64,000 nt of DNA from Pseudomonadota bacterium (GTDB lineage Bacteria > Pseudomonadota > Alphaproteobacteria > Rs-D84). Below the pieces are notes generated by a model. The model did no database searches, was not told the DNA's origin, and was given only the letters and a program-made list of their open reading frames with translations. The stretch is from NCBI GenBank assembly GCA_023402015.1, contig JAEXCU010000011.1, forward strand, positions 5,275 through 69,274, written 5' to 3'. Of this stretch, positions 12,546 through 55,867 are shown piece by piece. The number at the start of each line of letters is the position of its first letter. Positions within the stretch are counted from its first letter, which is position 1. The position numbers were made by a program, and so were the translations under genes.

Positions 12546-12899
12546 ATTTATTGGCGATGTCGCATGGGCCCGCTATATTTACGTGTGTGTAAATTAACGG
12601 GAATCAAGTTAATAAAAAACAACCCGCACGGATTTGTATGGTAAAGATGGCTGGATTACGAACAGGCCAACGCATTTCACATAATATTTATGAATTTGTT
12701 ATTCCTGCGCCCTGGTGCCCCATACAAACGCGTGTTTATACGGGATGACCGCGCCAGAAACACGGTCTTTAAAAATTATATTACCCAACCCCCTGCCCGG
12801 GCACGATTAATCAGAAAGAAACATGAATGACAAACGGGATTAAGTTTGAAACAGTTGCGAAAAACATTCCCCTGCCCGAAATTTTATTAATGATAAACA

Positions 12900-12930
12900 G
12901 AGAAACAGCGGTCATTGACCGCTGTTTCTC
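12900..12930 (-). terminator. Perfect 15-bp hairpin downstream of fibre gene F1
   Basis: GAGAAACAGCGGTCA-T-TGACCGCTGTTTCTC. The T-run is weak. Confidence 0.45.
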
Positions 12931-12993
12931 TCTCTCCTCTATGTGGGGGGCCATGTGGGATGCCGCCCCGTCCCATCCTCCCTCGCGGGAAAC

Positions 12994-14076
12994 TTATTCA
13001 ACCCAAATTGTGGCGTACGTTGTTCCGGTTGCAGAACCCACCGGAATTTGTACATTACCCTTTGTAACGGCAACCTTGCCGTCCGTCTGGGAAACCGCTG
13101 TTACAACGGCGCCGGTACCGGTACTGGTGCTGTCCAGTGCATTAATCTGGGCCTTGGTTGCATATGTCGCCGCCGCATTGGTTTTTGTTTCCATATCTGC
13201 GATTGCGGATTTTGTTGCGTACGTGGACACAATGTTATTACCACTGGCGTCGGCCGTTGCCTTGGCCGCCGTGCCGGTTGTGCTTAATTTGCCGTCCAAT
13301 GCCGCACTGACAACTTTGTTCTGAACAGGATTCGTGCTGGTGCCACTTAATGCAGTATCCACAGTTATCGCAGCCGGGATTGTAGGCTTATCAGACAAAT
13401 CGTCATATGAACCAGATGTCGCCACCGTGGCCAGACCGGAAACTTTGCCACTGGGGATTGTGGGAATATCGGTCGCTGTTAATGCGGCACTGCCCGTGAC
13501 CAATCCCTTGGTATCATATGTAATTTTTGTTCCCGTTCCCGCTGTAATTGCAGCGTTGGCCACAACCTTGGAATTTGCCGCAGTTTGTGCGGCATCCGCA
13601 GCGGCCTGGGCATCATCTGCGGCACTTTGCGCCGCCGCGGCCGCGGCCGTATTGGATGCGATTGTTGCCGCATAACCATCATAAGTTGTTATCTTTGCCG
13701 CCGTTATTCCAGAATTTGCCGCCGCCAATTGTGCCGTGGTCAAAGAGGCCTGTTTACCCGCCAGGGCGGTATTTATTACCTTGTTCTGGACTGGGTTTGT
13801 ACTGGTCGCACTTAACGCGAAATCAACCGTTATTGCGGCTGGAATTGTGGGTTTGTCCGTCAGATTATTGTATGAACCGGTCGTTGCAACGGTTGCCAAA
13901 TCACCGGGTTGAACCGCCGAGTCCGCGGTCGCCTTGACCTGATTCAATGCCGCAGTTGTCGCCAAAGACTTAACAACGGTATCAACATAGGCCTTGGAGG
14001 ATATATCGGCATTCGCCGCACCCGCAACCAAAATTGCAACCAAAGATACTGTAAAAATACTTGTTATTTTTTTCAT
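12994..14076 (-). CDS. Secreted Ala/Thr-rich fibre protein F1 with phage-tail-fibre-like repeats
   Basis: 360 aa with signal MKKITSIFTVSLVAILVAGAANA and then DISSKAYVDT. An internal duplication carries ATVAT[TS]GSY[ND][ND]L[TS]DKPTIPAAITVD.ALS.TSTNPVQNKV. No TM anchor. Confidence 0.8.
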   Translation of the reverse strand: MKKITSIFTVSLVAILVAGAANADISSKAYVDTVVKSLATTAALNQVKATADSAVQPGDLATVATTGSYNNLTDKPTIPAAITVDFALSATSTNPVQNKVINTALAGKQASLTTAQLAAANSGITAAKITTYDGYAATIASNTAAAAAAQSAADDAQAAADAAQTAANSKVVANAAITAGTGTKITYDTKGLVTGSAALTATDIPTIPSGKVSGLATVATSGSYDDLSDKPTIPAAITVDTALSGTSTNPVQNKVVSAALDGKLSTTGTAAKATADASGNNIVSTYATKSAIADMETKTNAAATYATKAQINALDSTSTGTGAVVTAVSQTDGKVAVTKGNVQIPVGSATGTTYATIWVE

Positions 14077-14191
14077 GACTGATTTTATTTAATTATATTA
14101 CCACACTCTGTTTACTTTATACTATCCGCGGCGCAAAGTTCTGATTGGTATGGTTCGGTTCCACGAACCATACCATTATCAGATTGAACAA

Positions 14192-15328
14192 TTATCTTTG
14201 TACAACTTCCCATTCAAATGTGGTTCCGTTTGTTGTCAGAACACATTTTGCATCAACTGCTGAACATGCTGTCTGCGGTTTTGGAATGGCCTTGCCAGCC
14301 GTTGTGTTCGCGGTATCTGCCGTTGCCTGGGCCGCATCTGCTGCATCTTGGGCATTGTCTGCCGCGGTTTGTGCAGTTGCCGCCGCCGCTGTGTTGGATG
14401 CGATTGTTGCCGCATAACCATCATATGTTGTTACCTTGGCCGCTGTGATGCCGGAATCTGCCGCCGCCAATTGTGCCGTGGTCAGAGTATCCTGTTTGCC
14501 ATCCAAACCATCGCTCAATGCAGTTTTTGTTGCATATGTTGCCGCTGCATTAGTTTTTGTTTCCATATCTGCAATTGCGGTTTTGGTTGCATATGTTGCG
14601 GTGGCATTTGCTTTGGTTTCATATGTTGTTGCAACATCAGCACTCTTGGCATAATCGTCCAGGTCAGCTGCCTGTAATGCTGTATCTGCTTTGGCACCCT
14701 GGGCCGCGGTTGCGAAATCCGCCGCGTCATGTGTTACAACGTCGCCATATGTTGCAACTGTTGCCGCTGTGCCCTTGGCCGTTGCGTTAACTTCGTTGAT
14801 TGCAGCAACCGTGTTTCCTTTGGCTGTTGTTGTCAATGTGGACAAAGTACCAATGTTTGTTAATGCCGCCGATGCATTTGTGGATGCAGTGTTTGCGACA
14901 CCTTCTGTTGACTTGACAGCATATGCTGCGTCGGCCGCTGTTTTTGTCTGATACGCATCCAAATCTGCGGATTGCAATGCGCTGTCGGCTTTACCCAAAG
15001 ATGTTACGATATCGTCGGCCAATTTTGCCTTGGTTACGTTTTTATCTGTAATCTGTGCGGTTCCAACGGCATCCAATTCTGCCAATGCGCCCAAATCTGC
15101 TGTGTTTGCCTTGGCCTCCAAACCGGTTGTTAATTCAGTTTTGGTTGCAGCGTCTGTAATGCCATATCCAGCCAATGTTGTTGCTTTGTCGGCTTTGCCC
15201 GCGATGGTTGTATTTTGTGTTGTATTCTGCGTGTCAACGTATGCCTTGGACGCGATTTCCGCGTTCGCCGCACCAACACCGACCACGGTCAGTAAAGTTG
15301 CAAAGATACCTGCTGTTAATTTTTTCAT
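14192..15328 (-). CDS. Secreted Ala/Thr-rich fibre protein F2
   Basis: 378 aa with signal ...VGAANA/EIASKAYVDT, motif KADKATTLAGYGITDA, and C-terminal tip IPKPQTACSAVDAKCVLTTNGTTFEWEVV. Confidence 0.8.
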   Translation of the reverse strand: MKKLTAGIFATLLTVVGVGAANAEIASKAYVDTQNTTQNTTIAGKADKATTLAGYGITDAATKTELTTGLEAKANTADLGALAELDAVGTAQITDKNVTKAKLADDIVTSLGKADSALQSADLDAYQTKTAADAAYAVKSTEGVANTASTNASAALTNIGTLSTLTTTAKGNTVAAINEVNATAKGTAATVATYGDVVTHDAADFATAAQGAKADTALQAADLDDYAKSADVATTYETKANATATYATKTAIADMETKTNAAATYATKTALSDGLDGKQDTLTTAQLAAADSGITAAKVTTYDGYAATIASNTAAAATAQTAADNAQDAADAAQATADTANTTAGKAIPKPQTACSAVDAKCVLTTNGTTFEWEVVQR

Positions 15329-15373
15329 TGTTTTTTCCTTTCTTTCGTTTGGTTAGTTTTTTTTGTTAAATTC

Positions 15374-16309
15374 TTATTTTACCGGATTTGTTACCTCTAC
15401 CCATTCCAATGCGCCACTGGTGTTAACAGATAATACGCATGTTCCAGATGCAGCGGTGCAATTTGTGGACGGTTTTGGAATTGCATAATCTTCAATTTGT
15501 TCAACCGTTTCCGTTTTGGTGTATGCATCCGTAATGCCATATCCGGCCAAAGTTGTTGCTTTGTCTGCTTTGCCCGCAACGGTGGTTTCCATTGTGGTAA
15601 TTTTGTTGTTCATTTCTTCAAAATTACCTTCGGTCGCCATACCGTCTGTTTTGGTTTTCAATTCATTAACAGCCGCGACGATTGTCTGTGCAGTTGTTGT
15701 CAATGTACCCGTACCAACTGTACCCTGCAATGTGTCAATTTCACCTTCGGCGGTGGAAACGCGCGATGTCAACGCGGTTAAATCTGTTTGTGATGCCTTG
15801 GTTGCCAAACCATCAGTCGTGCTGTTAACTTTGCCGGCCAATGTATCAACATCACCCTGGGCGGCGGCGGCGGCATTTCCTGCGGCGACGGCTTTGTCAT
15901 CCGCGGCCTTGGCGGCGGCGGCGGCGTCTGCGACACCTTTGACCAATCCAGACGTTTCATCGCCAACAACTGTTTCCAACGCATCAACGTCTTTCTGGGC
16001 GTTTTCGGCCGCGTTTTTTGCAGCGGCGGCGTCTGTGGCGGCCTGGTCAGCCTTGGCGGAAATACCCGTTTCGGCATTATTTAACGTATCATCTAAATCT
16101 GTAATTTGTTTGGTTATGTTGGTGATATTTGTTGTAATACCTTCAACCGTTGACTGGGTGGCATACGTATCACCAACCGTTGTCATAATGGCTGTTTCTT
16201 TGTCATCAACATACTGTTTGCTGGCAATCTGTGTGGTCGCCGCGTTTGCACCGGCACTTAACATAATTGCAGCCATAGCACCCGAGAAAGCAATTTTTTT
16301 GTTTTTCAT
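15374..16309 (-). CDS. Secreted Ala/Thr-rich fibre protein F3
   Basis: 311 aa with signal ...SAGANA/ATTQIASKQYVDD, coiled-coil-like heptad-rich middle, KADKATTLAGYGITDAYTKTE, and tip IPKPSTNCTAASGTCVLSVNTSGALEWVEV. Confidence 0.8.
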   Translation of the reverse strand: MKNKKIAFSGAMAAIMLSAGANAATTQIASKQYVDDKETAIMTTVGDTYATQSTVEGITTNITNITKQITDLDDTLNNAETGISAKADQAATDAAAAKNAAENAQKDVDALETVVGDETSGLVKGVADAAAAAKAADDKAVAAGNAAAAAQGDVDTLAGKVNSTTDGLATKASQTDLTALTSRVSTAEGEIDTLQGTVGTGTLTTTAQTIVAAVNELKTKTDGMATEGNFEEMNNKITTMETTVAGKADKATTLAGYGITDAYTKTETVEQIEDYAIPKPSTNCTAASGTCVLSVNTSGALEWVEVTNPVK

Positions 16310-16389
16310 CTTTTACCTTATCCCCAGAATCAGAAATTGCAGGACCATAACTTGTTTCCAAATCCGTCCATAAATCACGTCATCCTTGT

Positions 16390-18354
16390 TTAATAAACCA
16401 CTTCAAACCATGCCTTTTCGCCATTTGAAACGGCCAGAACATGGTCCCCCGTACGTGGCGCATCAGACGTGCTTACGGCCTGGTCCGCCTTGGTCAAAGA
16501 TGCCTGAACATCTGTGGCCAGTTTTGTTTTTGCGATTGCCGCGTCATCGGCAACATCCGCATTTACAATTGCACTTTTGGTTGCCAAGGTACCCAGACTG
16601 GATTTATCTGCCTTGGTTGCCAATTGTTCATTGACATATGTTGTGTCGGCCTTGGTTGCCAGTACGGTTTCAACGCCTTCCAGGCCGCCAACGGTTATGT
16701 CTTCTAATTTTTTATCAATTTGTGTGGTGGTATACGCATCTGTAATACCATATCCGGCCAATGTGGTTGCCTTGTCCGCCTTGGCCGCAACCGCAGTTGC
16801 CGCATTATCAGCCGCCGTTTTGGCCGCAGTCGCATTTGTATTTGCAGTGGTTGCCAATTCTTTGGCCTCGCCCGCGGCAGTATTCGCAGCCGTTGCATTT
16901 GTATTCGCCGTTGTTGCCAGCGTCTTGGCCTCGCCCGCGGCAGTATTTGCCGCGTTCGCAGTAGAATTTGCAGCGCTGGCCGTGCTTAGCGCACTGGCCG
17001 CCGCCGTTGCGGCATCACCGGCCAAATCATTGATTTCGCCAATTTCTGTATTAATGGCATCAACGCGTCCGGCCAACGTATTAACCGTTGTGTTATCTGC
17101 CTTGGCCGCCAAATCTGTTGTTGTCGCATATCCCGCCAATTGTGATTTGTCTGCCTTTAATTCCAACGCCGAATTTACATCTGCGGTTTTTGCATATGCC
17201 TTTAACGCTTCGCCCATATCACCGGCAACAACGTCGGCAACTTTTTCATCAACCTGGCCCTTGGTGTAAACATCCGCCACATTGGCCTTGGTTTCCAATT
17301 CTGCCTTGGTCGCCAATGTCGTTAATTCGGTTTTGTCTGCTTTGCCCGCCAAATCGGTCGTGGTCGCCATATCCGCGATATCAACCTTGGTTGCATATCC
17401 GGTCAACGCCCCTGGCTGTAATGCCGTTTCCGCCAACGCCCCCTGGGCCGCGGTCGCATAATTCGCGGACGCCGTCGCAATCGCAGACGCAATCGCCGTA
17501 TTCATTGCAGCGGTCGTCGCATATGACGCGGCAATATCCGCCGTTTTTGCATATTCGCTTAAATCAATACTGGCCGCATCACCGGGTTCACCCTTGTCCC
17601 CTTTTTCACCCTTTTCACCCTGGGGACCCTGGGGACCTGTGATATCATTCTTAGAAATCAAAACATTCCATGTTGTATCGCCAACATAACGCCATAATAA
17701 ATTGTCATCGTTTGAACCGATTTCAACTTCACGACCGTCTTTGCCGGCAACAGTATTTAATTCATCTTTTAAATTTTCAACATCAACGTAAATTTCATTG
17801 GTTGTGTCATCAATAATAATGTACCCATCCGCAGTCGTGTTTAACAAATCCTGCTTTTCCAGCAATTTATCCGAAAACGCAATATCGGCATCTTGCAATT
17901 TATCAACATCACGACGAACCTGATCCACCTGGGATTGCAAATCTGCGGCCGTACCCGGATCCATAGAACCACCACCGGTTGAACCACTGGATGAATTGCC
18001 CGGCCCCTGGGGTTTAATAGAACTGCCACCACTGATTGATGTTCCGCCACCCAAATATTTTCCGATTGATAAACGCGGTGTTGTCGCCACGCGACCGGAC
18101 GTTGTTGTCCCAGCAGAAGGCTTGGCAACCGTTCCGGTTTTACCGGTTGTTGGCGTGACGCGCACAGAACCACCGCGCGCCGCAGCAATCGCATTAGAAC
18201 CAGACGATGTGTTTGCCGCCGCCGCGCTGGATGCGCTGTTATAGGTTCCACTGCCCCCCAGCGACCGAACCGACGAAGCACCATATGCACCAGATACGGT
18301 CGTGCACAGCACACAAACCATTGCCAACGTTGATATTTTCAGTTCGTTTTTCAT
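16390..18354 (-). CDS. Secreted fibre protein F4 with a collagen-like G-X-Y run
   Basis: 654 aa with a signal-like N-terminus and a Gly/Ser-rich linker. GPQGPQGEKGEKGDKGEPG, KADKATTLAGYGITDAYTTTQ, and long Ala/Thr repeats (ANTAAGEAK.LATTANTNATAA x2). Confidence 0.8.
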   Translation of the reverse strand: MKNELKISTLAMVCVLCTTVSGAYGASSVRSLGGSGTYNSASSAAAANTSSGSNAIAAARGGSVRVTPTTGKTGTVAKPSAGTTTSGRVATTPRLSIGKYLGGGTSISGGSSIKPQGPGNSSSGSTGGGSMDPGTAADLQSQVDQVRRDVDKLQDADIAFSDKLLEKQDLLNTTADGYIIIDDTTNEIYVDVENLKDELNTVAGKDGREVEIGSNDDNLLWRYVGDTTWNVLISKNDITGPQGPQGEKGEKGDKGEPGDAASIDLSEYAKTADIAASYATTAAMNTAIASAIATASANYATAAQGALAETALQPGALTGYATKVDIADMATTTDLAGKADKTELTTLATKAELETKANVADVYTKGQVDEKVADVVAGDMGEALKAYAKTADVNSALELKADKSQLAGYATTTDLAAKADNTTVNTLAGRVDAINTEIGEINDLAGDAATAAASALSTASAANSTANAANTAAGEAKTLATTANTNATAANTAAGEAKELATTANTNATAAKTAADNAATAVAAKADKATTLAGYGITDAYTTTQIDKKLEDITVGGLEGVETVLATKADTTYVNEQLATKADKSSLGTLATKSAIVNADVADDAAIAKTKLATDVQASLTKADQAVSTSDAPRTGDHVLAVSNGEKAWFEVVY

Positions 18355-18418
18355 AAAATCTCTCTACCTAGTAAGATAATATCACATTTGTGCGAATCGG
18401 GTCAACTATTTTCCCAGA

Positions 18419-19135
18419 CTAAAATTCATATCTCAGCCCGACAGATATGGAATTGTCCAGAATCAGGCCGATTTTATTTTCCAAATAGTACTGGTTATTG
18501 TCATATGTTTCAAAATGACGCGTCTGTTTTGTTCCACTGAAACCGGCGAAACGATACCGCAAATCCAATACCAGATTATCATCCAATTTTGTTGTATAAC
18601 CCAGCATTACGCCCGCCATCGGTGATACAGATGTTTTTGTTCTGTCGCCTGGGATAAAGAAATTTCCGTCCAATTGCGTAATTGGTATCGCCATACCAAC
18701 ACCGGCACCAACATACAAACCATTTGTAAAGTCATAATAACCATTTGCCATTACATATGGCGCAGACAATTTAAATTCTGTTCCTGCATCTTTATCACTG
18801 AATTGTCCGATATATCCAGCCTCTAATTCACCGCGCCAGAAATATCCGAAATGACGTCCCGCCGACAATGATCCAGTGAACACAGGTTCAAAAGAATATT
18901 TATCGTCATCAAAATCCGCGTTTGCCAACGGCCAATCAGATTTATATTTATTTTTCCAATTCAGGAAACTGGCCTCCACGCGACCGACAACATACCAACC
19001 GGTTTTTGCCTTGTCTGTATAATCATATGTAATGTTATATCCGCCACGATTATCGCGTTGAATATAACTGGGGGCCGCATGCGCCGCACCAGTGGTCAAG
19101 CCGACCAAAACAAATAAAGAAACCAATTTTTTCAT
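18419..19135 (-). CDS. Small outer-membrane beta-barrel protein (OmpX/Opa-like porin-family fold)
   Basis: 238 aa with signal ...GAAHA/AP, alternating amphipathic strands, and the C-terminal aromatic signature GLRYEF. Confidence 0.75.
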   Translation of the reverse strand: MKKLVSLFVLVGLTTGAAHAAPSYIQRDNRGGYNITYDYTDKAKTGWYVVGRVEASFLNWKNKYKSDWPLANADFDDDKYSFEPVFTGSLSAGRHFGYFWRGELEAGYIGQFSDKDAGTEFKLSAPYVMANGYYDFTNGLYVGAGVGMAIPITQLDGNFFIPGDRTKTSVSPMAGVMLGYTTKLDDNLVLDLRYRFAGFSGTKQTRHFETYDNNQYYLENKIGLILDNSISVGLRYEF

Positions 19136-19272
19136 GATTATCCTTCCTCCAAATTTTTTCCTAAGTATATCACAATTTCAGACCTTATCCAAAACATAAA
19201 ATATGCTGTTGACTTCTTTTCTGTTATTTTGCTACATTTTTTATAACACTATTAAGTAGGAAAGGATTAAAA

Positions 19273-22932: not shown

Positions 22933-23502
22933 ATGAAAAAATTTATGCGTATCTTTTTGCTGGGGCCCGGATTAATCATATCTTATCATGCAATGGCAAT
23001 GTCAGATAACACGATTCAAATCTGTGATACGGGACAATTCCCCGATGATATCGCATGTAAATTATACCTGGCGGGTTATACAATTTCATCCACAATGGCA
23101 TGCAGTATGTGCACAGATATAATGGGTTGTGTTTATGATAAAATTTACAATATGGGCACAACAACATCATCCGCATTACAGGAATGTTATGATAACGAAG
23201 GCTATGACAATGGTGATGTTGCAGCAATATTTAACATCATTGCGGGCGGTGATACCACAAATTTGGATGTTAATTTATCAGGGGGCAATTTTATCGCCGC
23301 ATGCCAAAATTATTCTTTGTGCCAATGTTGGATTGGTACATATGGCGCAAACGGCGAAAATATTGTGTGCAATGATTGCCCACAAAACGGATGGTCCGCC
23401 ACCGGTGCCACATCCATAACCCAATGTTATATGATACCCGGTAATTCCAGTGATACAACAGGCCAATTTACATATACCGCAAATTGTTTTTATACAAATT
23501 AA
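22933..23502 (+). CDS. Small secreted Cys-rich protein (P4)
   Basis: 189 aa with RBS AAGGAGG and signal MKKFMRIFLLGPGLIISYHAMA. N-domain has CxxCx5C...Cx5C. C-terminus CNDCPQNGWSATGATSITQCYMIPGNSSDTTGQFTYTANCFYTN. Confidence 0.82.
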   Translation: MKKFMRIFLLGPGLIISYHAMAMSDNTIQICDTGQFPDDIACKLYLAGYTISSTMACSMCTDIMGCVYDKIYNMGTTTSSALQECYDNEGYDNGDVAAIFNIIAGGDTTNLDVNLSGGNFIAACQNYSLCQCWIGTYGANGENIVCNDCPQNGWSATGATSITQCYMIPGNSSDTTGQFTYTANCFYTN

Positions 23503-24176: not shown

Positions 24177-24713
24177 ATGTGTCAAATGGATGCAGATTGC
24201 GCAGCCGGCCAAAAATGCTGTAATGGTTTATGCTATCAAGAAGATTACGAAGGCGATTGTCCCAGTGGTGGTGGCGGTGGCGGCGGCAGTTGCGGCAGCA
24301 GCGGTTGTTATTGCGTAAATTCCAATTCATGTTGGGACGGGTATTATTGTAAACTTAATTCCGGTGGTACATCAGGCACATGCCAACCAATTCCCGATTG
24401 TTCCCAGGGTTGCACAAATTGCGATACAACCACCTGGACATCATACAGCACCGGATATCAATCACGCGTTTATGCCACATGTGATTGCACAACATGCAGC
24501 AAAAGAACACAATATCGTTGCGCGGCGGGTTATTATGGCACCCCCAGCACCGGAACCAGCGGTTGTACCAAATGCCCGTCATCCGGTACATCACGCGAAA
24601 CGTGTACCGCGGGCAGCACATCTGCAACATCATGTTATTTACCGGCCAGTGTATTTATCAGCGATGCGGCAGGTAAATATCAATTTACAACGAATTGTTT
24701 TTACACAAATTAA
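24177..24713 (+). CDS. Cys-rich protein (P5) with uncertain start (possibly N-terminally truncated or a pseudogene)
   Basis: C-terminus CTKCPSSGTSRETC...SCYLPASVFISDAAGKYQFTTNCFYTN. The frame is open upstream to 24027 and encodes a signal-like LLSSFILIVSLTSTCIFRPAFG after GGAGG, but has no ATG/GTG/TTG before 24177. Confidence 0.6.
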   Translation: MCQMDADCAAGQKCCNGLCYQEDYEGDCPSGGGGGGGSCGSSGCYCVNSNSCWDGYYCKLNSGGTSGTCQPIPDCSQGCTNCDTTTWTSYSTGYQSRVYATCDCTTCSKRTQYRCAAGYYGTPSTGTSGCTKCPSSGTSRETCTAGSTSATSCYLPASVFISDAAGKYQFTTNCFYTN

Positions 24714-25214: not shown

Positions 25215-26534
25215 TTAGGGTAATTTCGGGGACCAGGTGGGTTCCACACCATTAACATCATCAGGCAATTCAATGTCATATACATTTTGACCGGTAATAT
25301 CAACACTGCGGATATGACTGATGCGTTCTATGCCGTCCAATGCACGTTCTGTTTCATAATAAACAACGCGGCGACTGCCCGGGGCCCAGGACGGGGCCTC
25401 CATATACCAACCACCGGCCAATATTTTTTCATTGCGACCGCGTGGATCCATAATGCCGATATAAAACGTATTATCGGCCATTTTGGTAAATGCGATAAAC
25501 TGGCCATCGGGCGACCACGCCGGCGTGGCATAACGACCCGCCCCGTATGTCAGGCGATTTTCCACGCCCGTTTCCAAATCCAAAACGTGAATTTGTTGAT
25601 TACCGGAACGGTCTGAATTAAACGCCATTTTTTTACCGTCCGGGGAATAAGACGGACTGGTATTTAATGAATTGCCAAATGTTAATTGACGCAGCGCTTT
25701 GGATTCAATGTCATATTCATAAATATGTGTGATTCCATTTTTAACCAAAGATAACGCAATCTTGGTTCCGTCGGGTGAAAAACGCGGTGCAAAGTTCATC
25801 CCGCCAAATTGCCCCAGGCGTCGTTGTTCACCGGTATCTAAATCCAATGTCCAGACCATTGGATCGTCATCGCGGAACGATAAAAATACAACTGTCTGCA
25901 TGTTGGGTGAAAAATGCGGCGACATAACAAAAGTTTTTTTATCAGACAAATAACGCATACCATGACCGTCTTGGTCCATTATCGCCATTCTTTTTACACG
26001 ATTATGTACCGGGCCGGTTTCGGCGATAAATACAATTTGCGTATCAAAATATCCGATTTCACCGGTCAGGCGTTCATAAATTGCGTCCGCCATAATATGG
26101 GCCAAACGCCGCGCAGATTTCCGGGAAGATACCAGTGATTGCGCCTCTATCTGTTCTTTGCCATTAATATCCCAGACATAGAATTCCAATTTATACTTGC
26201 CACCGGCCTGAGCAGATAATTCGGCCTGGACCAATACCTGGGCCTTGATTGCCATCCATGATTGAAAGTTCGGTAATTCACCCATTTTTACATACTCAGG
26301 AAATGCATCATGCGAAACAATGCGAAACAATCCGGTGGATTTTAAATCTGATTCAACCACGCCACGTATCATCGCGGCATCTTTGGTGGAAACATCACCT
26401 TTGACCTGAAACTTTTGCACGGCAACCGGAATGGGTTCCGTCGCCCCGGCAATAATATCCACCTTTAATTCACCGCGCGCTGGAATAATTACCAGGGTGC
26501 ACAATACCAGAAAAGACATTAATTTTTTCAACAT
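25215..26534 (-). CDS. tolB: Tol-Pal system periplasmic protein TolB
   Basis: 439 aa with a signal, an N-terminal TolB domain, and repeated P.[WF]SPDG beta-propeller blades. Confidence 0.92.
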   Translation of the reverse strand: MLKKLMSFLVLCTLVIIPARGELKVDIIAGATEPIPVAVQKFQVKGDVSTKDAAMIRGVVESDLKSTGLFRIVSHDAFPEYVKMGELPNFQSWMAIKAQVLVQAELSAQAGGKYKLEFYVWDINGKEQIEAQSLVSSRKSARRLAHIMADAIYERLTGEIGYFDTQIVFIAETGPVHNRVKRMAIMDQDGHGMRYLSDKKTFVMSPHFSPNMQTVVFLSFRDDDPMVWTLDLDTGEQRRLGQFGGMNFAPRFSPDGTKIALSLVKNGITHIYEYDIESKALRQLTFGNSLNTSPSYSPDGKKMAFNSDRSGNQQIHVLDLETGVENRLTYGAGRYATPAWSPDGQFIAFTKMADNTFYIGIMDPRGRNEKILAGGWYMEAPSWAPGSRRVVYYETERALDGIERISHIRSVDITGQNVYDIELPDDVNGVEPTWSPKLP

Positions 26535-30473: not shown

Positions 30474-31088
30474 CTATTGCCAATCAGTTAAATCATCATC
30501 TTCGCCATAACTGGCATAGCAAAAATCACTGAGGATACCGCTGCCCGTTTCATCCGAAAAATTGCCGGGCACCAAAAAACACGACGTAATAAAAATTGAA
30601 TTTTCATATGACAACCCATTCATGGGACATCGCAAACATTCAGAATTTATTCCCCATTTCAGGGCCGAAATACCACGCGGTTGTATGTACGAACCATTGG
30701 TACAATAACAATAACCGATATTAACACAGGATTCCAAAACCCTGCCCGCCAGCGTTTTATGTGTTTCATTCATACGGACATTTTCCAACATGTCGCAGGT
30801 TTTATCATACCAATACGTATTGGTAATATCCCTGGCATTTTCGGCCAATGTTCCTGAAAATTCCGCAACGGATGGATATTTATCCAGACATATTGCAGCG
30901 GCATCTGAATAATCCGCCACGTCATAAGAATTGCAATTCTGGGCCGCCACATTGGGATACACCGCATTCGCAACACATGATACAAAATTAACGCAACTGT
31001 CGCATGATTGTCCCAGGTTTATTGTGCCGCCCCCAGATTCACACATAATTAATACGACAAAAAATAATGACCAAAAGAATTTTTTCAT
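30474..31088 (-). CDS. Secreted Cys-rich protein (P6)
   Basis: 204 aa with signal-like MKKFFWSLFFVVLIM. N-domain has CDSCVNFVSC...C...C. C-terminus CLRCPMNGLSYENSIFITSCFLVPGNFSDETGSGILSDFCYASYGEDDD. Confidence 0.8.
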   Translation of the reverse strand: MKKFFWSLFFVVLIMCESGGGTINLGQSCDSCVNFVSCVANAVYPNVAAQNCNSYDVADYSDAAAICLDKYPSVAEFSGTLAENARDITNTYWYDKTCDMLENVRMNETHKTLAGRVLESCVNIGYCYCTNGSYIQPRGISALKWGINSECLRCPMNGLSYENSIFITSCFLVPGNFSDETGSGILSDFCYASYGEDDDLTDWQ

Positions 31089-32898: not shown

Positions 32899-33495
32899 TT
32901 AATCATAAACATAATAACATTTATCTGAGTATTCACCGGCGCCGGTATCATCGTTGAAATTTCCGGTCAAATAGCATTTATTCAGCGAAAAGTTATCACC
33001 ATAATCACTTTTCCCGCCATTTGGACATTGGGAATATATCATTTGCACAACCAACGCCTGTTGCGCATCATTTTGCACGCCCACGCCCGCCCAGAAATAA
33101 TTTGCATCCGGAAATTCGCATACCCCATGTTCCATACAACGACGCGCCGCAATCAGCGCAATCTGATGCAATTGTTCCTGCAAATGTTCGGCACTCATCC
33201 CCGTATTCGCGTCATAATCGTAATCTTGGCCCATCCGCCATCCCAAATCGGCCAAATCTTCACACATGTATGGTGATTCTGTGCACATTGCGGCAATGGC
33301 GGCATTAGATCGGTTATCGCAGAATGTTTTTGCACTGGCCGCATCCAGTTTATTATAAAAATATTTGCTGGCGTTGCATGATATGTATGCCATGCAGGCC
33401 TGGCATTTTGCAGTTGGCGTTGTCGCAGCATATGCATCTGTACCCAACACGAAAACCATAATACCCACAAGCAAACGTCCGTTAAGATTCGGCAA
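32899..33495 (-). CDS. Secreted Cys-rich protein (P7)
   Basis: 198 aa with a TTG start in the ORF track and signal-like LLVGIMVFVLGTDAYA. N-domain has CQACMAYISC...C...Cx5C. C-terminus QCPNGGKSDYGDNFSLNKCYLTGNFNDDTGAGEYSDKCYYVYD. Confidence 0.75.
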   Translation of the reverse strand: MPNLNGRLLVGIMVFVLGTDAYAATTPTAKCQACMAYISCNASKYFYNKLDAASAKTFCDNRSNAAIAAMCTESPYMCEDLADLGWRMGQDYDYDANTGMSAEHLQEQLHQIALIAARRCMEHGVCEFPDANYFWAGVGVQNDAQQALVVQMIYSQCPNGGKSDYGDNFSLNKCYLTGNFNDDTGAGEYSDKCYYVYD

Positions 33496-35779: not shown

Positions 35780-37876
35780 TTAATTATTAAATATTTCGTT
35801 CAGCAATTCGTTCAATGGCACCCCCAGCCATTCTGGGTCGCCGCGCTTTTCCGGTGCACCACGTTCCAACGCGGTTTCACATGGATGATCATCGGCCAGC
35901 CAATTTTCCAATAAATCCCCGGCCAATAATCCAACGCCCGCACCTGCAACCAATCCGATACCGCCGGTAAACGGCGCCAATAACAAACCAATTCCGGTTG
36001 CAGATGCAACCTTGCCGGCGACGGCGGCGCCACTGATTTTTATATCGGGTTCTGCCAAATTTCCATTAATTTCAATGGAATTTACAACATTGCCGGTTAA
36101 TGACAATTTCAATCCACGCACCGGCACCGTCGTCAGTGATAATTTCATATTTTCATCGCCTAAATCCATACTGCCCGCCAGGCGAACATTTATCGCATTT
36201 GTTTCCGCCGCAACACCGTGTTGGGTATCGGCATAACCATTTCGCAATTTTGTATTTAATGACACACATGAAATTTTTATTTGACTGTATTTCTTTTCAG
36301 ACCGAAATAAATCCTGGATACTGTGGCGCAATGTTGTCAGGAAATCAGAACCATACATATTTGCAACCAATGCAGAATGTGCATACCCCGGCGCCACAGA
36401 ATACATTTGTACAGGCCCGGTGATTGTGTTCATTAATTCAGACAGGTTTGTTCCGTTTCCTTGCAGATACGCATCAACATTAACCGGTAAATCAGAAATT
36501 AAATCGTTTATGCGAATTTCGTTTAATATATTTCCCACAGAAATATCCCGCCCAATAACACCTGCGCGAACAAACATACGGCCGTCTGCATCAATTGCGA
36601 CGTTTCCTGCGATTGATATATTCCCCCCGCCAACCGTTGTTGTTGCATCAACACGCGCATCGCCGTCATACAATTTAACAGACAGGTCAATGTTTCGTAT
36701 ATTTAATTCGCGATAAACAATTAAATTACCGATATCCGCATGCAGATGCAGATTGAACTTTAAAAATTCTTTACCATATAACGGTATGTCATGAAAAACA
36801 TTCAGTGGTCGGTCCGGATGAATCCATTTTTTCCCATATAAATCAGGGAATAATTCCAATAAATCGATAGATTGCGAGTCGATATTTGCATCTATCATCG
36901 GGATTTTTTTGGACCAATCGTATACCCCGGATACAGATATTTCTGTTCCGCGAACAATTATTGTTGATTTACGCACCGTCAATCTTTTTCGGTCAAATCC
37001 ACCGGCAATATTTACCTTTAATGTTGGCATTTCCAACAAGTCTAAATCAATAATTCGCCCCAGGGCGGCAATATCTGGTATGTCGCCGGTGATTATAAAG
37101 TCTATGGGGGCTTTGCTGGTGGCTTCCAATGCAATGTTTGCAATCAACGCGTCCCCGCCGGTAGAAAACGCAACCCGAACGGGATAAATTTTCCGCTCAG
37201 CATTATATTCAGAATATGAAACAATAAACGGGAACACATCCTTTTCAGATTTTATCCAACCGGCATATTCACGGCCATTCTGGGATGGTGCATATCTGAT
37301 TTGAAATCCGGCCAAAGAATATGTTGTATCAAAAACATGTGCGACCAGATTGCGAACCTCTACCCCACCCAGGCCCGGATCAGTAAACGGGTATTTGGCA
37401 GGTGTTGTGGCCACGGGTTTGGCATCCGTTGTCGTCGCATCTGATGACGCAACAGATTCTGTTTGATCCTGAAACGGCACAACAGATAATTGTCCCTTGT
37501 CGTTTTGTTCAATGCAAACTGTTGCATCATAAATTTTTACATTTTGAATTGTCGGTCGGTTGCGCAACAGCGACAACAGGTTCATCCGAACGTCAACCTT
37601 TTCTGCACTGAACGCGTATTTATGTTTTGCCCAATCGGCATTGGGAACACGAACCTGGTTTAATTCCACCTGGGGACGCAAAGAAAATTTCCATGAAACT
37701 GCGCCGTCTATTTCCACCGGTAATCCGGTTGCATCGCGCAGAATTGCCAAAACATTCCCACGCAGTGTTTCCAGGTTAACCTGGCTGAGTGCGATTATAA
37801 CCGCCACCGCCAGTCCCATTATAAACAGGCCCAGTATGCGTGTAATCGTAAAAAATAATCTTTTTTTACCAGCCAT
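35780..37876 (-). CDS. AsmA-family envelope protein
   Basis: 698 aa with a single N-terminal TM anchor, a long beta-rich periplasmic region, and a Gly-rich C-terminus. Confidence 0.6.
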   Translation of the reverse strand: MAGKKRLFFTITRILGLFIMGLAVAVIIALSQVNLETLRGNVLAILRDATGLPVEIDGAVSWKFSLRPQVELNQVRVPNADWAKHKYAFSAEKVDVRMNLLSLLRNRPTIQNVKIYDATVCIEQNDKGQLSVVPFQDQTESVASSDATTTDAKPVATTPAKYPFTDPGLGGVEVRNLVAHVFDTTYSLAGFQIRYAPSQNGREYAGWIKSEKDVFPFIVSYSEYNAERKIYPVRVAFSTGGDALIANIALEATSKAPIDFIITGDIPDIAALGRIIDLDLLEMPTLKVNIAGGFDRKRLTVRKSTIIVRGTEISVSGVYDWSKKIPMIDANIDSQSIDLLELFPDLYGKKWIHPDRPLNVFHDIPLYGKEFLKFNLHLHADIGNLIVYRELNIRNIDLSVKLYDGDARVDATTTVGGGNISIAGNVAIDADGRMFVRAGVIGRDISVGNILNEIRINDLISDLPVNVDAYLQGNGTNLSELMNTITGPVQMYSVAPGYAHSALVANMYGSDFLTTLRHSIQDLFRSEKKYSQIKISCVSLNTKLRNGYADTQHGVAAETNAINVRLAGSMDLGDENMKLSLTTVPVRGLKLSLTGNVVNSIEINGNLAEPDIKISGAAVAGKVASATGIGLLLAPFTGGIGLVAGAGVGLLAGDLLENWLADDHPCETALERGAPEKRGDPEWLGVPLNELLNEIFNN

Positions 37877-41812: not shown

Positions 41813-42286
41813 ATGAAACTTTTTTACATCTTTATCATACCGTTGTTGTACACAACATCTGCAAATGCGCTGTGTGCATCGGACACGGAAATCACCACAG
41901 AAATACCAAACGGAAAAATTGTACGCAGAGATTGCGCATACGTTGCGCCCAATTGTTCCGGCACATGTCCATGTTGCAGAACATCGCCAGTTTATACATG
42001 TACATGCAACAGTGGATATTACGCAACCGGTGGCGGAACCACCAATTGTACATGTAATGCATGTCCGACAAACAGCACCTGCACCAGTGCCACCAGTTTT
42101 ACATGCAATGTCGGATATTATAAAAATGGCGTTGTTTGTTCGCGATGTCCATCGTCGTACGGTGTGGACGGGACAACCACGCGCGGTGCAACATCCATAA
42201 CCAAATGTTATTTACCGTCCGGCACAATCGGCACAGATACATCAGGTGATTTTGCATATTCTGAAAATTGCTTTTATTCAGAATAA
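41813..42286 (+). CDS. Small secreted Cys-rich protein (P8)
   Basis: 157 aa from MKLFYIFIIPLLYTTSANA with RBS GGAG. CNSGYYATGGGTTNCTCNACPTNSTC, CNVGYYKNGVVCSRCPSSYG...ATSITKCYLPSGTIGTDTSGDFAYSENCFYSE. Confidence 0.82.
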   Translation: MKLFYIFIIPLLYTTSANALCASDTEITTEIPNGKIVRRDCAYVAPNCSGTCPCCRTSPVYTCTCNSGYYATGGGTTNCTCNACPTNSTCTSATSFTCNVGYYKNGVVCSRCPSSYGVDGTTTRGATSITKCYLPSGTIGTDTSGDFAYSENCFYSE

Positions 42287-47536: not shown

Positions 47537-47806
47537 TTAATGAATACCCACGCGGAACTGGTCGCCCCAACCGGCAACAACCTGGCCGCCAACGGTGCAT
47601 TGGATATCTTCGAAGCCATTTGCAACCTGGTTCTTTTTTATTACATTACTGGTGATTAAACCGCCCGCAGTTCCCAATACAACACCTGCAACTGAATCGG
47701 ATAATAAACGCGTACTGTTGAATTTACCTTCCTCGGTCTTCCATACCGTGCGTTCAAAATCTGATTTCTGCGTGTTTATTTTCTTTATTGTTTCTTTTAT
47801 GCGATT
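47537..47806. repeat. Left arm of the about 270-bp inverted repeat (3' ends of G1 and G2)
   Basis: The reverse complement matches 50258-50525 at roughly 90% by eye, and most differences are synonymous. Confidence 0.85.
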
Positions 47807-55840: not shown

Positions 55841-55867
55841 AAAAATCCGCCGATTGGCGGATTTTTA
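55841..55867. terminator. Terminator after the giant Cys-rich gene (copy 2 of an identical 25-mer)
   Basis: AAAAATCCGCCGATTGGCGGATTTTTA. Confidence 0.65.

What the first reader, a model, noticed from the sequence alone, without database searches (positions are those of the whole stretch)
12994..19135. Five-gene same-strand block: OM beta-barrel plus four secreted phage-tail-fibre-like fibre proteins
F1-F4 all start with a Sec-type signal followed by I[AS]SK[AQ]YVD. They are extremely Ala/Thr-rich. They contain motifs that I associate with phage tail fibres: ATVATSGSYDDLSDKPTIP, STNPVQNKV and KADKATTLAGYGITDA. They end in small, different tips, two of which are disulfide-loop tips: C.....CVL...G...EW.VV. 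There are no tail, baseplate or capsid genes nearby and no membrane anchor. The genes are separated by only 45-115 nt and follow a 238-aa OM beta-barrel gene. This looks like a chromosomal family of trimeric adhesion fibres with exchangeable tips, analogous to mosaic adhesive fibres, rather than a prophage remnant.
Basis: partly seen in the sequence, partly recalled or inferred. Interest (0 to 1): 0.65.

Follow-up and report, generated by a model that had tools for sequence, protein, structure and literature searches.

The report
Conserved secreted fibre operon in Enterousia
A tiny-genome, uncultured gut alphaproteobacterium (Candidatus Enterousia group) carries, at one fixed chromosomal site shared by the related species sampled, a set of exported fibre proteins built partly from phage tail-fibre modules. 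They are the best candidate so far for how these partner-dependent bacteria touch other cells.

Summary
The five minus-strand genes are real: a small outer-membrane beta-barrel (18419-19135) followed by four Ala/Thr-rich proteins with Sec-type signal peptides.

- Only three of the four fibres carry I[AS]SK.YVD. The 654-aa protein has a different, conserved Gly/Ser/Thr-rich N-terminus and a collagen-like run.
- The phage-like motifs are unevenly distributed among the four proteins.

The block is not a prophage remnant. About 30 species-level genomes of gut Rs-D84/Enterousia alphaproteobacteria have the same arrangement: ftsX-ftsE-pal-[OMP, A, B, C, (C'), D]-dedA-rbfA-lepA.

Each position keeps its own signal peptide, N-terminus and small C-terminal cap, while shaft length and sequence vary widely. 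The caps are therefore position-specific, not exchangeable; the shafts are the mosaic part.

The shafts contain alanine-zipper heptads, beta-layer motifs, a collagen run and roughly 56-aa modules shared with genuine phage tail fibres. This points to trimeric fibres.

The family has no significant match in Pfam, NCBIfam or PDB sequences. Neither cap type was found in the viral collections searched.

Best reading: exported, probably surface-exposed trimeric fibres for cell contact in an obligately partner-dependent lineage. They are analogous to, but not members of, the Bdellovibrio MAT fibres. The export route and the anchor are unknown.

The parts
18419..19135 (-). Small outer-membrane beta-barrel protein (238 aa). 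It has a signal peptide, a conserved ~25-aa N-terminal extension, and then about 10 long strands.
   Evidence: PF13505 scores 25.3 bits, just under its cutoff, but PF13505/PF01389 hits are on record for its homologues. The AF2 model has pLDDT 87.7 and pTM 0.78. The best Foldseek matches are OmpA-TM, NspA, Ail, OmpX, OprG and OpcA. Orthologues at 47-69% identity occupy the same position in 30+ loci.
16390..18354 (-). Fibre A (654 aa). It has a signal peptide but no IASK motif, and is always the first fibre gene.
   Evidence: There are 863 homologues, all unnamed or annotated 'hypothetical protein [Ca. Enterousia]'.
17950..18279 (-). Fibre A N-terminal Gly/Ser/Thr/Arg-rich region (residues 26-135). 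It carries motifs conserved across species: ASSVRSLGGSGTY, RGGSVRVTP, RVATTPRLSIGKYLGG and SxSGGSS[LI][RK]P. It is a candidate anchor or linker.
   Evidence: Alignment of 21 A-type orthologues; coordinates checked by translation.
17575..17820 (-). Fibre A small domain (DGREVE..LLWRYVG..W..LI) followed by a collagen-like run of six Gly-X-Y triplets, GPQGPQGEKGEKGDKGEP (within 17575-17637).
   Evidence: phrog_19976 matches residues 179-253 at 1.3e-8. TRF finds a 9-nt repeat at 17587-17637. The triplet number varies among orthologues. PF01391 Collagen hits are on record for orthologues P0277, P0281 and P0351.
16811..16999 (-). Three tandem 63-nt (21-aa) repeats in the fibre A shaft. The copy number differs between strains.
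   Evidence: the repeat finder family D6. Contig L002 of the same species lacks one unit.
16393..16467 (-). Fibre A C-terminal cap, a Cys-less version of the T2-type cap (..GDHVLAVSNGEKAWFEVVY).
15374..16309 (-). Fibre B (311 aa). It has a signal peptide, then ATTQIASKQYVD, a coiled-coil shaft, a KADKATTLAGYGITDA module (15521-15571) and a Cys-loop cap (15377-15481).
   Evidence: B-type orthologues have the same signal peptide and cap in all loci.
14192..15328 (-). Fibre C (378 aa). It has a signal peptide, then EIASKAYVD, a KADKATTLAGYGITDA module, YATK beta-layer repeats, alanine-zipper heptads and a Cys-loop cap (14195-14293).
   Evidence: It shares 194 nt at 79% identity and 71 nt at 87% identity with fibre D.
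12994..14076 (-). Fibre D (360 aa), always the last fibre gene. It has a signal peptide, then DISSKAYVD, two phage-type ~46-56-aa modules (13768-13905 and 13303-13440), an alanine-zipper helix (13543-13701) and a T1 cap (12997-13131, ..VTKGNVQIPVGSATGTTYATIWVE).
   Evidence: The AF2 model has a helix at 126-178 with pLDDT about 90-97. The modules are 68% identical to repeats in the phage tail-fibre protein P0090.
12899..12931 (-). Strong terminator-like hairpin (15 bp stem) 62 nt after the fibre D stop codon; the likely end of the transcription unit or units.
18376..18405 (-). Promoter-like site (10/12 match with a TG extension) between the barrel gene and fibre A. Similar TGTGATAT-type extended -10 elements lie upstream of the barrel gene (19164-19191) and of fibre D.
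   Evidence: These are consensus matches only, and the count is not above shuffles.

Best explanation
This is a lineage-wide, vertically inherited chromosomal locus of the reduced-genome gut alphaproteobacteria of order Rs-D84 (Candidatus Enterousia and relatives). It encodes three to five paralogous, Sec-exported, homotrimeric fibre proteins downstream of a small outer-membrane beta-barrel gene.

Each fibre is modular:
- A position-specific signal peptide.
- A short conserved N-terminus. In B, C and D this is an IASK.YVD element that looks like an N-capping beta-layer starting the trimeric coiled coil directly at the mature N-terminus. In A it is a ~110-aa conserved Gly/Ser/Thr/Arg-rich region.
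- A highly variable shaft assembled from alanine-zipper heptads, beta-layer repeats, a collagen run (A only) and repeat modules shared with phage tail fibres.
- A small conserved C-terminal cap. This is either a ~30-aa hairpin around an invariant Trp, with or without a disulfide loop (A, B, C), or the IPVGSAT..YATIWVE cap (D).

The proteins are exported to the periplasm, where the disulfide caps can form. They are most likely displayed outside the cell as fibrils that mediate contact with a partner cell, host surface or substrate. Shaft sequence and length drift and recombine between paralogues and species, while the ends needed for folding, registration or docking stay fixed.

Shown: the gene structure, the synteny, the conservation pattern, module homology to phage fibres, and absence from viral collections.

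Inferred: trimer state, surface exposure and adhesive role.

Unknown: how the fibres cross the outer membrane and what holds them on the cell.
For: - Synteny. 36 related loci were found, nearly all in gut 'Alphaproteobacteria/Enterousia/Rickettsiales' MAGs. The order ftsX-ftsE-pal-OMP-fibres-dedA-rbfA-lepA is conserved. Identity to the window is about 84-93% for lepA, 47-69% for the OMP, and 33-40% between orthologous fibre shafts of different species.
- Fixed architecture. All 30 loci (29 plus the window) where both the barrel gene and dedA were in range show one A, then 1-3 IASK/T2-cap genes, then one IASK/T1-cap gene.
- Conservation pattern. The termini are conserved, while shaft lengths vary 119-992 aa.
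- Export. All have signal-peptide features and no other hydrophobic segment. Cys residues occur only as one pair in the cap, apart from two in FA's signal peptide.
- Trimer indicators:
  - A collagen Gly-X-Y run conserved in position with a variable number of triplets.
  - AQxAAxx heptads modelled as a 53-residue helix at pLDDT about 90-97.
  - Weak Alanine_zipper hits.
  - Enrichment of [aliphatic]-A-T/S-K and KADK motifs. These match the beta-layer consensus of trimeric alpha/beta coiled coils (PMC4786415).
  - A weak PDB sequence hit to that structure, 5apz (E=0.084), and to the T5 L-shaped tail fibre, 8hqz (E=0.036).
- Phage modules. The FD module is 68% identical to repeats in P0090, which lies just downstream of the tape-measure, Dit, sheath-initiator and wedge genes in a phage contig. 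The hairpin unit before the T1 cap recurs in tandem in signal-less proteins that hit PHROG tail-fibre families.
- Not phage-borne:
  - No T1 cap was found in IMG/VR.
  - The 16 degenerate-pattern hits for the T2 cap in IMG/VR were all chance matches.
  - Full-length FC and FD had no GenBank phage match.
- Lifestyle. Rs-D84 genomes are <1 Mb, lack flagella and most biosynthesis, and are proposed to depend on partner cells (PMC12306168). A ~6-kb locus kept in every sampled genome is therefore a notable investment.
Against: - There is no direct evidence of expression, trimerisation or surface location.
- Only monomer AF2 was possible. The FD model is mediocre (mean pLDDT 64) and has no Foldseek match in the PDB.
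- No outer-membrane translocator or anchor was identified. The adjacent barrel is OmpA/OmpX-sized.
- B, C and D have no recognisable anchoring domain at either end, so they could be released rather than displayed.
- The caps are small and conserved, which is unusual for receptor-binding tips. The ligand-binding part, if any, is undefined.
- Conserved synteny of the whole neighbourhood means that gene adjacency alone does not prove a functional link with the barrel.
- Signal peptides were judged heuristically.
Confidence: 0.55

Rival explanations
1. Segmented, end-to-end fibre. The gene products assemble in gene order into one long multi-protein fibre, as in the T4 long tail fibre (gp34-37). 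A is anchored to the cell by its unique N-terminal region. The T2-type cap of each segment docks the IASK-type N-terminus of the next (B, C, C'). D, with its unique T1 cap, terminates the fibre.
For: - Across 30 loci there is always exactly one A first and one D last, with 1-3 IASK/T2 genes between them. The number of T2-type caps therefore equals the number of IASK-type N-termini.
- B, C and D have no anchoring domain of their own.
- Minimal D proteins of 119-169 aa consist of little more than the IASK motif plus the T1 cap.
- A divergent protein (P0485) joins an A-like N-terminal region directly to a T1 cap.
- Position-specific conservation of both ends, with free shafts, is what interfaces would show.
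Against: - A mirror-tree test on 14 complete loci, controlling for lepA distance, gave no preference for the predicted partners. Predicted: capA-ntB 0.26, capB-ntC 0.06, capC-ntD 0.19. Non-partners: capA-ntD 0.47, capC-ntC 0.39. The test is underpowered, but it gives no support.
- The equal counts follow trivially from the domain layout.
- The IASK motif is equally well explained as a beta-layer N-cap of a coiled coil.
- No multimer modelling was possible.
Confidence: 0.1
2. Envelope-internal structural proteins. These would be periplasmic trimeric coiled coils (Lpp/OprI-like alanine zippers) that tether or space the outer membrane in a lineage lacking Braun's lipoprotein. The neighbouring barrel and Pal-like genes would be functional partners.
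For: - Sec signal peptides are present, but no export system has been identified.
- There are weak Alanine_zipper (PF11839) and Ala_zip_lipo hits.
- The locus sits beside pal and near tolB.
- The OMP has a conserved periplasm-side N-terminal extension.
Against: - There is no lipobox.
- Shaft lengths range from about 90 to about 960 mature residues between species. This is incompatible with a fixed periplasmic spacing.
- Phage tail-fibre modules, a collagen run and rapid mosaic divergence are typical of exposed proteins.
- The Pfam hits are below threshold.
Confidence: 0.1
3. Released (non-anchored) secreted fibres. Possible roles include matrix or aggregation factors, or decoys that mimic phage receptor-binding fibres and occupy receptors on neighbouring bacteria or host glycans.
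For: - B, C and D have no anchor domain.
- A secretin plus a TcpQ-like gene are present in the same window, which could export folded periplasmic proteins.
- The modules are shared with phages of the same habitat, for example crAss-like head fibres.
Against: - Nothing links the secretin to these proteins. It lies about 40 kb away, within ~6 kb of dprA in the same window, so it may serve DNA uptake.
- Conserved ends suggest docking.
- Fibre A has a conserved N-terminal region suited to anchoring.
Confidence: 0.15
4. Degenerate prophage, gene-transfer-agent or tailocin remnant whose tail-fibre genes survived.
For: Modules are shared with phage tail and head fibres. An integrase-like ORF lies about 4 kb away at 8094-9092.
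Against: - All fibres have Sec signal peptides, which virion proteins assembled in the cytoplasm lack. The phage relatives found here have none.
- There are no capsid, tail or baseplate genes in the flanks.
- The locus is syntenic and intact, between housekeeping genes, in about 30 species.
- The caps are absent from viral collections.
Confidence: 0.03

Closest known systems
Bdellovibrio bacteriovorus MAT (mosaic adhesive trimer) fibres (Caulton et al. 2024, PMC10769870)
   Same: Both are chromosomal multigene families of signal-peptide-bearing, phage-tail-fibre-like trimeric fibres in a bacterium that must contact other cells. Both have a mosaic construction, no classical membrane anchor and an unknown surface attachment.
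   Different: MATs share a ~130-aa beta-rich N-terminal domain and carry large variable tips (S74 chaperone-protease or diverse binding domains). Here the fibres start directly with a coiled-coil motif or a low-complexity region, and the caps are 30-45 aa and conserved. Variation lies in the shaft. The genes form one fixed-order locus instead of being dispersed. There was no Peptidase_S74 or other Pfam hit.
Trimeric autotransporter adhesins (type Vc; YadA, BadA/Vomp, OMP100)
   Same: Both are Sec-exported trimeric surface fibres with coiled-coil stalks containing beta-layers (KADKAD-type motifs). Tandem paralogous genes are known, for example the Bartonella vomp genes (own knowledge).
   Different: There is no C-terminal YadA-type 4-strand membrane anchor, and no Pfam anchor hit. 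The C-termini are small soluble-looking caps. The separate neighbouring barrel is a monomeric OmpA/OmpX-like fold.
Phage tail and head fibres (myophage tail fibre P0090; crAss-like head fibre; T5 pb1; T4 gp34-37)
   Same: They share the repeat modules ..SGLATVATSGSYxDLxDKPTIP..STNPVQNKV, KA[DN]KATTL[AS]GYGI[TQ]DAYTK and the SGTGAVVTxVSQTDGKVTVTKGNV hairpin unit. In T4, gene order equals assembly order (own knowledge), which is a model for the segmented-fibre reading.
   Different: The phage proteins have no signal peptide, have phage-type N-termini and lie in tail modules. The Enterousia N-termini and caps were not found in viral collections.
Alpha/beta coiled coils (Tcar0761, OMP100; Hartmann et al. 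2016, PMC4786415)
   Same: [aliphatic]-A-T/S-K-x-x and KADK motifs interrupt the heptads. [quoted passage not shown] The motifs are enriched here.
   Different: The evidence is motif-level similarity plus one weak PDB hit (E=0.084). There are no long regular nonad arrays.
Bacterial collagen-like surface proteins (Scl, BclA) and Lpp/OprI alanine-zipper lipoproteins
   Same: A short Gly-X-Y triple-helix segment (fibre A) and alanine-zipper heptads imply parallel trimers.
   Different: There is no LPXTG motif or lipobox. The collagen run is only about 3-15 triplets. The Pfam scores are below threshold in the window proteins.

Membership tests
Bdellovibrio MAT fibre family | Signal peptide | tested here: met
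   Heuristic n/h/c-region analysis of all four fibres.
Bdellovibrio MAT fibre family | [quoted passage not shown] | tested here: not met
   B, C and D begin with IASK.YVD, and helices start at residue 28 in the AF2 model of FD. A has a Gly/Ser/Thr-rich low-complexity region instead.
Bdellovibrio MAT fibre family | Variable C-terminal tip domain (S74 chaperone-protease or other >100-aa binding domain) | tested here: not met
   There are no Pfam hits. The caps are 30-45 aa and conserved per position across about 30 species.
Trimeric autotransporter adhesins (type Vc) | C-terminal YadA-like beta-barrel anchor | tested here: not met
   Pfam and NCBIfam scans found no anchor. The C-termini are short caps.
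Trimeric autotransporter adhesins (type Vc) | Trimeric coiled-coil stalk with beta-layers | tested here: inconclusive
   The motifs are enriched and a long helix is modelled, but the oligomeric state could not be modelled.
Phage tail fibre / prophage remnant | Gene lies in a tail/baseplate module of a (pro)phage | tested here: not met
   The flanks are housekeeping genes and the locus is syntenic in about 30 genomes. The phage relative P0090, by contrast, does lie in a tail module.
Phage tail fibre / prophage remnant | Shared fibre repeat modules | tested here: met
   68% identity over a 56-aa module; PHROG tail-fibre hits for relatives; short GenBank phage hits.
T4 fibritin foldon-like C-terminal trimerisation domain (my own lead for the T2 caps) | Detectable sequence or profile similarity to the foldon | tested here: not met
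   A profile of 40 caps against PDB sequences gave no foldon hit at E<=10. hhalign against the foldon gave probability 0.3%. Structural similarity was not testable because no multimer prediction was available.
Collagen-like proteins (PF01391) | Uninterrupted Gly-X-Y repeats | tested here: met
   Fibre A only: GPQGPQGEKGEKGDKGEP, six consecutive Gly-X-Y triplets starting at residue 240. The number of triplets varies in orthologues. PF01391 is on record for three orthologues.
Lpp/OprI alanine-zipper lipoproteins | Lipobox Cys plus a PF11839 match above threshold | tested here: not met
   There is no lipobox in B, C or D. PF11839 scores 16 bits against a cutoff of 23.1.
Small OM beta-barrels (OMP_b-brl PF13505; OmpA-TM/OmpX/Ail/OpcA-like) | 8-10-stranded antiparallel barrel with a C-terminal aromatic residue | tested here: met
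   The AF2 model has pLDDT 87.7. Foldseek E-values are 1e-7 to 1e-5 against OmpA, NspA, Ail, OmpX, OprG and OpcA. The protein ends in ..RYEF. The window protein's own Pfam score (25.3) is just under the cutoff (28.7).

The most novel reading that the evidence does not exclude
The locus encodes a Sec-exported, multi-protein segmented fibre that self-assembles outside the cytoplasm in gene order: A anchored to the envelope, B/C/(C') as extension segments joined cap-to-N-terminus, and D as the terminal cap. This would be a cellular analogue of the T4 long tail fibre. It would serve as the attachment organelle of an obligately partner-dependent, reduced-genome gut alphaproteobacterial order.
Probability: 0.1. 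Interest if true: 0.8.

Novelty: new variant of a known kind. Interest (0 to 1): 0.6.

Why it matters
Rs-D84/Enterousia bacteria are widespread in human and animal guts. Their genomes are under 1 Mb, they lack most biosynthetic pathways, and they are thought to live off partner cells. They are uncultured, and nothing is known about how they make contact (PMC12306168).

This locus is kept in every sampled genome, is about 0.5-1% of the genome, and encodes exported phage-fibre-like proteins. It gives a concrete, testable candidate for that contact apparatus, and targets for antibodies, enrichment and partner identification.

It also extends the idea, so far documented mainly for Bdellovibrio MAT fibres, that bacteria living on other cells domesticate phage tail-fibre modules for Sec-dependent display. 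The design here is different: conserved small ends, variable shafts and a fixed gene order.

The protein family has no Pfam, NCBIfam or PDB counterpart.

Tried and rejected
1. Foldon hypothesis for the Cys-loop/Trp caps. By eye, IP.P...[CY]VL...G..W..V resembles [23 protein letters not shown]. It is not supported by hmmsearch of a 40-cap profile against PDB sequences or by hhalign. I keep it only as an untested structural idea.
2. Foldseek of the FD monomer model against the PDB gave no matches. The model is too extended and of too low confidence to be informative.
3. Full-length FC and FD by tblastn against 50,697 GenBank phages gave no match at 1e-5. Only short module queries gave marginal hits. 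The crAss-like cr60_1 hit shares only the KANKATTLSGYGIQDAYTK motif, not the cap.
4. Cap searches in IMG/VR:
   - T1 patterns matched 178 stretches, none confirmed.
   - The T2 alignment was too variable for the tool.
   - A degenerate NKCVLT...WE DNA pattern gave 16 hits, all out-of-frame or stop-containing chance matches.
5. NCBIfam had nothing for the fibres. There was only a sub-threshold Rickettsia Adr-like hit for the barrel.
6. The barrel as translocator is rejected on size and fold.
7. A mirror-tree covariation test of the segmented-fibre model gave no preference for the predicted cap/N-terminus partners.
8. I looked for secretion machinery. I found only a secretin plus a TcpQ-like gene about 40 kb away, in the same window as dprA, and no other pilus or T2SS genes in the window. 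No link to the fibres is established.
9. The higher GC of the block (0.47-0.49 against about 0.42-0.44 in the immediately adjacent stretches) is explained by Ala/Gly/Thr codon content and is not evidence of horizontal transfer. The long plus-strand ORFs inside the block are antisense artefacts of the same composition.

Full report
**What is in the sequence.** Five consecutive minus-strand ORFs occupy 12994-19135:
- a 238-aa protein at 18419-19135;
- four Ala/Thr-rich proteins that I call FA (16390-18354, 654 aa), FB (15374-16309, 311 aa), FC (14192-15328, 378 aa) and FD (12994-14076, 360 aa).

The gaps between them are 64, 80, 45 and 115 nt. A 15-bp-stem terminator-like hairpin follows FD. All five products have an MKK-type n-region, a hydrophobic core and an AxA-like site. 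None has another hydrophobic segment. Ala+Thr content is 32-44%.

- I[AS]SK.YVD follows the signal peptide in FB, FC and FD only.
- FA instead begins ASSVRSLGGSGTY...
- The ATVATSGSY..L..KPTIP and STNPVQNK motifs occur only in FD, twice each.
- KADKATTLAGYGITDA occurs once each, identically, in FA, FB and FC.

FB and FC end in a C-x6-C loop followed by VL...G...W..V. FA ends in a Cys-less version of the same motif (GDHVLAVSNGEKAWFEVVY). FD ends differently (VTKGNVQIPVGSATGTTYATIWVE). The flanking genes are housekeeping: LepA, RbfA, a VTT/DedA protein, a Pal-like OmpA-family lipoprotein, an FtsE-like ABC ATPase and an acyltransferase.

**Whose genome, and how general.**
- FD has 1816 database relatives. 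The closest all combine a signal peptide, an IAS[KQS]GYVD motif and the same C-terminal cap.
- A scan of one genome per prokaryotic species returned 36 loci. Nearly all come from gut MAGs labelled uncultured Alphaproteobacteria, Candidatus Enterousia or Rickettsiales. They include circular chromosomes of 958 kb and 716 kb.
- In these loci the neighbourhood is syntenic: ftsX-ftsE-pal-[barrel, fibres]-dedA-rbfA-lepA. Identity to the window is mostly about 90% for lepA (84-93%) and 47-69% for the barrel.
- In all 30 loci where both the barrel gene and dedA were in range (29 plus the window) the layout is the same. One 'A' gene comes first, with the ASSVRSLGG-type N-terminus and a Cys-less Trp cap. 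Then come one to three genes with an IASK-type N-terminus and a Trp (usually Cys-loop) cap. One 'D' gene with an IASK-type N-terminus and the YATIWVE cap comes last.
- Each position keeps its own signal-peptide sequence, for example MKKLTAGIFATLL.. for C.
- Mean pairwise identity is higher for the first 45 residues in every class (0.43-0.69) than for the shaft (0.33-0.40). The last 40 residues stand out only in D (0.73); they are 0.35-0.41 in A-C, where conservation lies in the cap motif with its invariant Trp.
- Shaft length is free: A 443-929 aa, B 282-668, C 285-595, D 119-992.
- Within the window the paralogues share DNA tracts: 194 nt at 79% and 71 nt at 87% between FC and FD, and 102 nt across FA, FB and FC.
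- Strains of the same species differ by one 63-nt repeat unit in FA and by a 49-nt indel in FB.

The variable, mosaic part is therefore the shaft. The 'tips' are fixed.

**Fibre character.**
- Pfam, NCBIfam and PDB sequence searches give nothing significant for the fibres. The family is uncurated.
- FA has a run of six Gly-X-Y triplets preceded by a small DGREVE..LLWRYVG..W..LI domain that hits a phage PHROG at 1.3e-8. The collagen run is conserved in position, with 3-15 triplets in orthologues. Three orthologues carry PF01391.
- FC and FD contain AQxAAxx alanine-zipper heptads. In the AF2 monomer model of FD these form a 53-residue helix with pLDDT about 90-97. The whole model averages only 64 and has no Foldseek match.
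- Motifs of the form [aliphatic]-A-T/S-K and KADK are strongly enriched against shuffles. They match the beta-layer consensus of trimeric alpha/beta coiled coils. Such beta-layers can also cap the N-terminal end of a coiled coil (PMC4786415).
- On that reading, the conserved IASK.YVD is the N-cap that starts the trimer right at the mature N-terminus. It is not an anchoring domain. This step is inference.
- FA also gives weak PDB hits to the beta-layer structure 5apz (E=0.084) and to the T5 L-shaped tail fibre 8hqz (E=0.036).

**Relation to phages.**
- More distant FD relatives lack signal peptides and carry PF11133 or Mtd_N.
- One of them, P0090, lies just downstream of the tape-measure, Dit, sheath-initiator and baseplate-wedge genes on a 67-kb contig. 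It shares a ~56-aa repeat with FD at 68% identity.
- GenBank phages match only at the level of these short modules, for example crAss-like head fibres and jumbo-phage tail proteins.
- A phmmer search of the last 65 residues of FD against 1.84 billion representatives found only 144 proteins. At least 79 of the 134 newly returned ones end in the same cap, allowing up to two extra residues, and 82 have signal-like N-termini.
- Most of the remaining hits are long, signal-less proteins with phage-type N-termini. These match only the hairpin unit, in tandem copies. The three of them scanned hit PHROG families, two of them tail-fibre families; the other hits are short, signal-bearing proteins with variant caps.
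- Neither cap type was found in IMG/VR.

The fibres are therefore cellular proteins that have borrowed phage shaft modules. They are not phage genes.

**The barrel.** The 238-aa protein has 486 close homologues, annotated at most as 'outer membrane beta-barrel', 'porin family' or 'opacity protein-like'. Its AF2 model is confident (pLDDT 87.7). It shows a small barrel of about ten long strands with a conserved ~25-aa N-terminal extension. It is closest to OmpA-TM, NspA, Ail, OmpX, OprG and OpcA. A barrel of this size cannot pass a folded trimer. It could be an anchor, for example by strand augmentation, or simply a neighbouring abundant porin-like protein. Because the whole neighbourhood is syntenic, adjacency alone does not decide between these.

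**How it most likely works.**
- Shown: Sec-type leaders, cap-restricted Cys pairs, fibre-type repeats, lineage-wide conservation, variable shafts.
- Inferred: the proteins are exported to the periplasm, oxidise their cap disulfides, trimerise into parallel fibres and are displayed on or released from the cell surface. There they would mediate contact. The exposed shafts diversify, while the ends needed for folding or docking are held constant.
- This fits what is published on the lineage: genomes <1 Mb, no flagella, missing biosynthesis and glycolysis steps, and a proposed partner-dependent lifestyle (PMC12306168).
- Unknown: the outer-membrane route and the anchor. The window does contain a secretin and a TcpQ-like gene, but they lie about 40 kb away in the same window as dprA and cannot be tied to the fibres.

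**Alternatives.**
- *Segmented fibre (A-B-C-D joined end to end, as in T4 gp34-37).* This would neatly explain several observations. Gene order is fixed. A has a unique N-terminus and D a unique cap. Some D proteins are minimal, at 119-169 aa. P0485, a divergent protein, fuses an A-like N-terminus to a T1 cap. However, a mirror-tree test gave no preference for the predicted partners. The IASK motif also has the simpler beta-layer explanation. I give this model about 0.1.
- *Periplasmic Lpp-like role.* This is contradicted by the free shaft length.
- *Prophage or GTA remnant.* This is contradicted by the signal peptides, the synteny and the housekeeping flanks.
- *Release as soluble fibres.* This cannot be excluded.

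**Comparison with known systems.**
- The nearest functional analogue is the Bdellovibrio MAT family: Sec-dependent, phage-like trimeric fibres of a bacterium that attacks other cells. Its defining ~130-aa beta-rich N-terminal domain and its large or S74 tips are absent here, so this is not a MAT member.
- These are not trimeric autotransporters, because there is no YadA-type anchor.
- My own foldon idea for the caps failed the sequence tests.

I therefore class the locus as a new variant of a known kind, a bacterial surface fibre built from phage-fibre modules. It belongs to an uncharacterised family restricted, as far as sampled, to Rs-D84-type gut alphaproteobacteria.

Noticed in passing
window 311-1051(+), 1033-1806(+), 5600-5980(-), 22933-23502(+), 24177-24713(+), 30474-31088(-), 32899-33459(-), 41813-42286(+), 47537-49018(-), 55865-57280(-), 63495-63971(-): At least eleven ORFs encode Cys-rich proteins (6-13% Cys, up to 47 Cys), most with a signal-peptide-like N-terminus. 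Those scanned have no Pfam family, apart from one weak TNFR-like hit. This looks like a second large class of probably secreted proteins in a <1 Mb genome.
   Followed up: partly
window 58821-60449(-) and 60483-61397(-): A secretin (PF00263, 5.7e-14, lipoprotein-like N-terminus) lies next to a TcpQ-like gene (PF10671, 1.9e-16). No other pilus or T2SS genes were seen in the window. dprA lies nearby at 52195-53223. The published description of Rs-D84 genomes reports type IV pili only for the UBA9783 lineage, not for Rs-D84.
   Followed up: partly
window 8094-9092(-): An integrase-like ORF (Arm-DNA-bind_3, Phage_int_M and SAM-like N-terminal domains, but no catalytic-domain hit) lies just beyond lepA. 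The only tRNA gene in the window (tRNA-Pro, 3687-3763) is about 4 kb further on.
   Followed up: no
window 16811-16999 and ~16001-16051; loci L001, L002: Contigs of the same species from other samples differ only inside the fibre genes. L002 has one 63-nt repeat unit fewer in FA, and L001 has a 49-nt deletion that splits FB into two ORFs. FC, FD and the flanks are essentially identical (99.6-100% nucleotide identity). This could be real strain or phase variation, or assembly error in repeats.
   Followed up: partly
locus L038 (OZ246409.1, 716,531-bp chromosome): The record is titled 'uncultured Muribaculaceae bacterium', but it carries the same syntenic ftsEX-OMP-fibres-dedA-rbfA-lepA locus with 88% LepA identity. 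It is probably a mislabelled Rs-D84-type alphaproteobacterium.
   Followed up: no
protein P0485 (192 aa): This divergent relative combines an A-like Ser/Thr/Arg-rich N-terminal region (..SSIRTVS..) directly with a short coiled coil and the T1-type cap. It shows that the end modules recombine as units. Its genomic context could not be fetched.
   Followed up: no
window 35780-37876(-) and 25215-26534(-): An AsmA/YhdP-family protein and TolB are present, so envelope lipid-transport and Tol-Pal functions are retained despite the genome reduction.
   Followed up: no
locus L042 (crAss-like phage cr60_1, NC_055891.1 58731-61786): The small phage protein sharing the KANKATTLSGYGIQDAYTK motif sits immediately upstream of a 'tail protein / major tropism determinant'-like gene and a reverse transcriptase. 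That is, it lies next to a probable diversity-generating retroelement.
   Followed up: no
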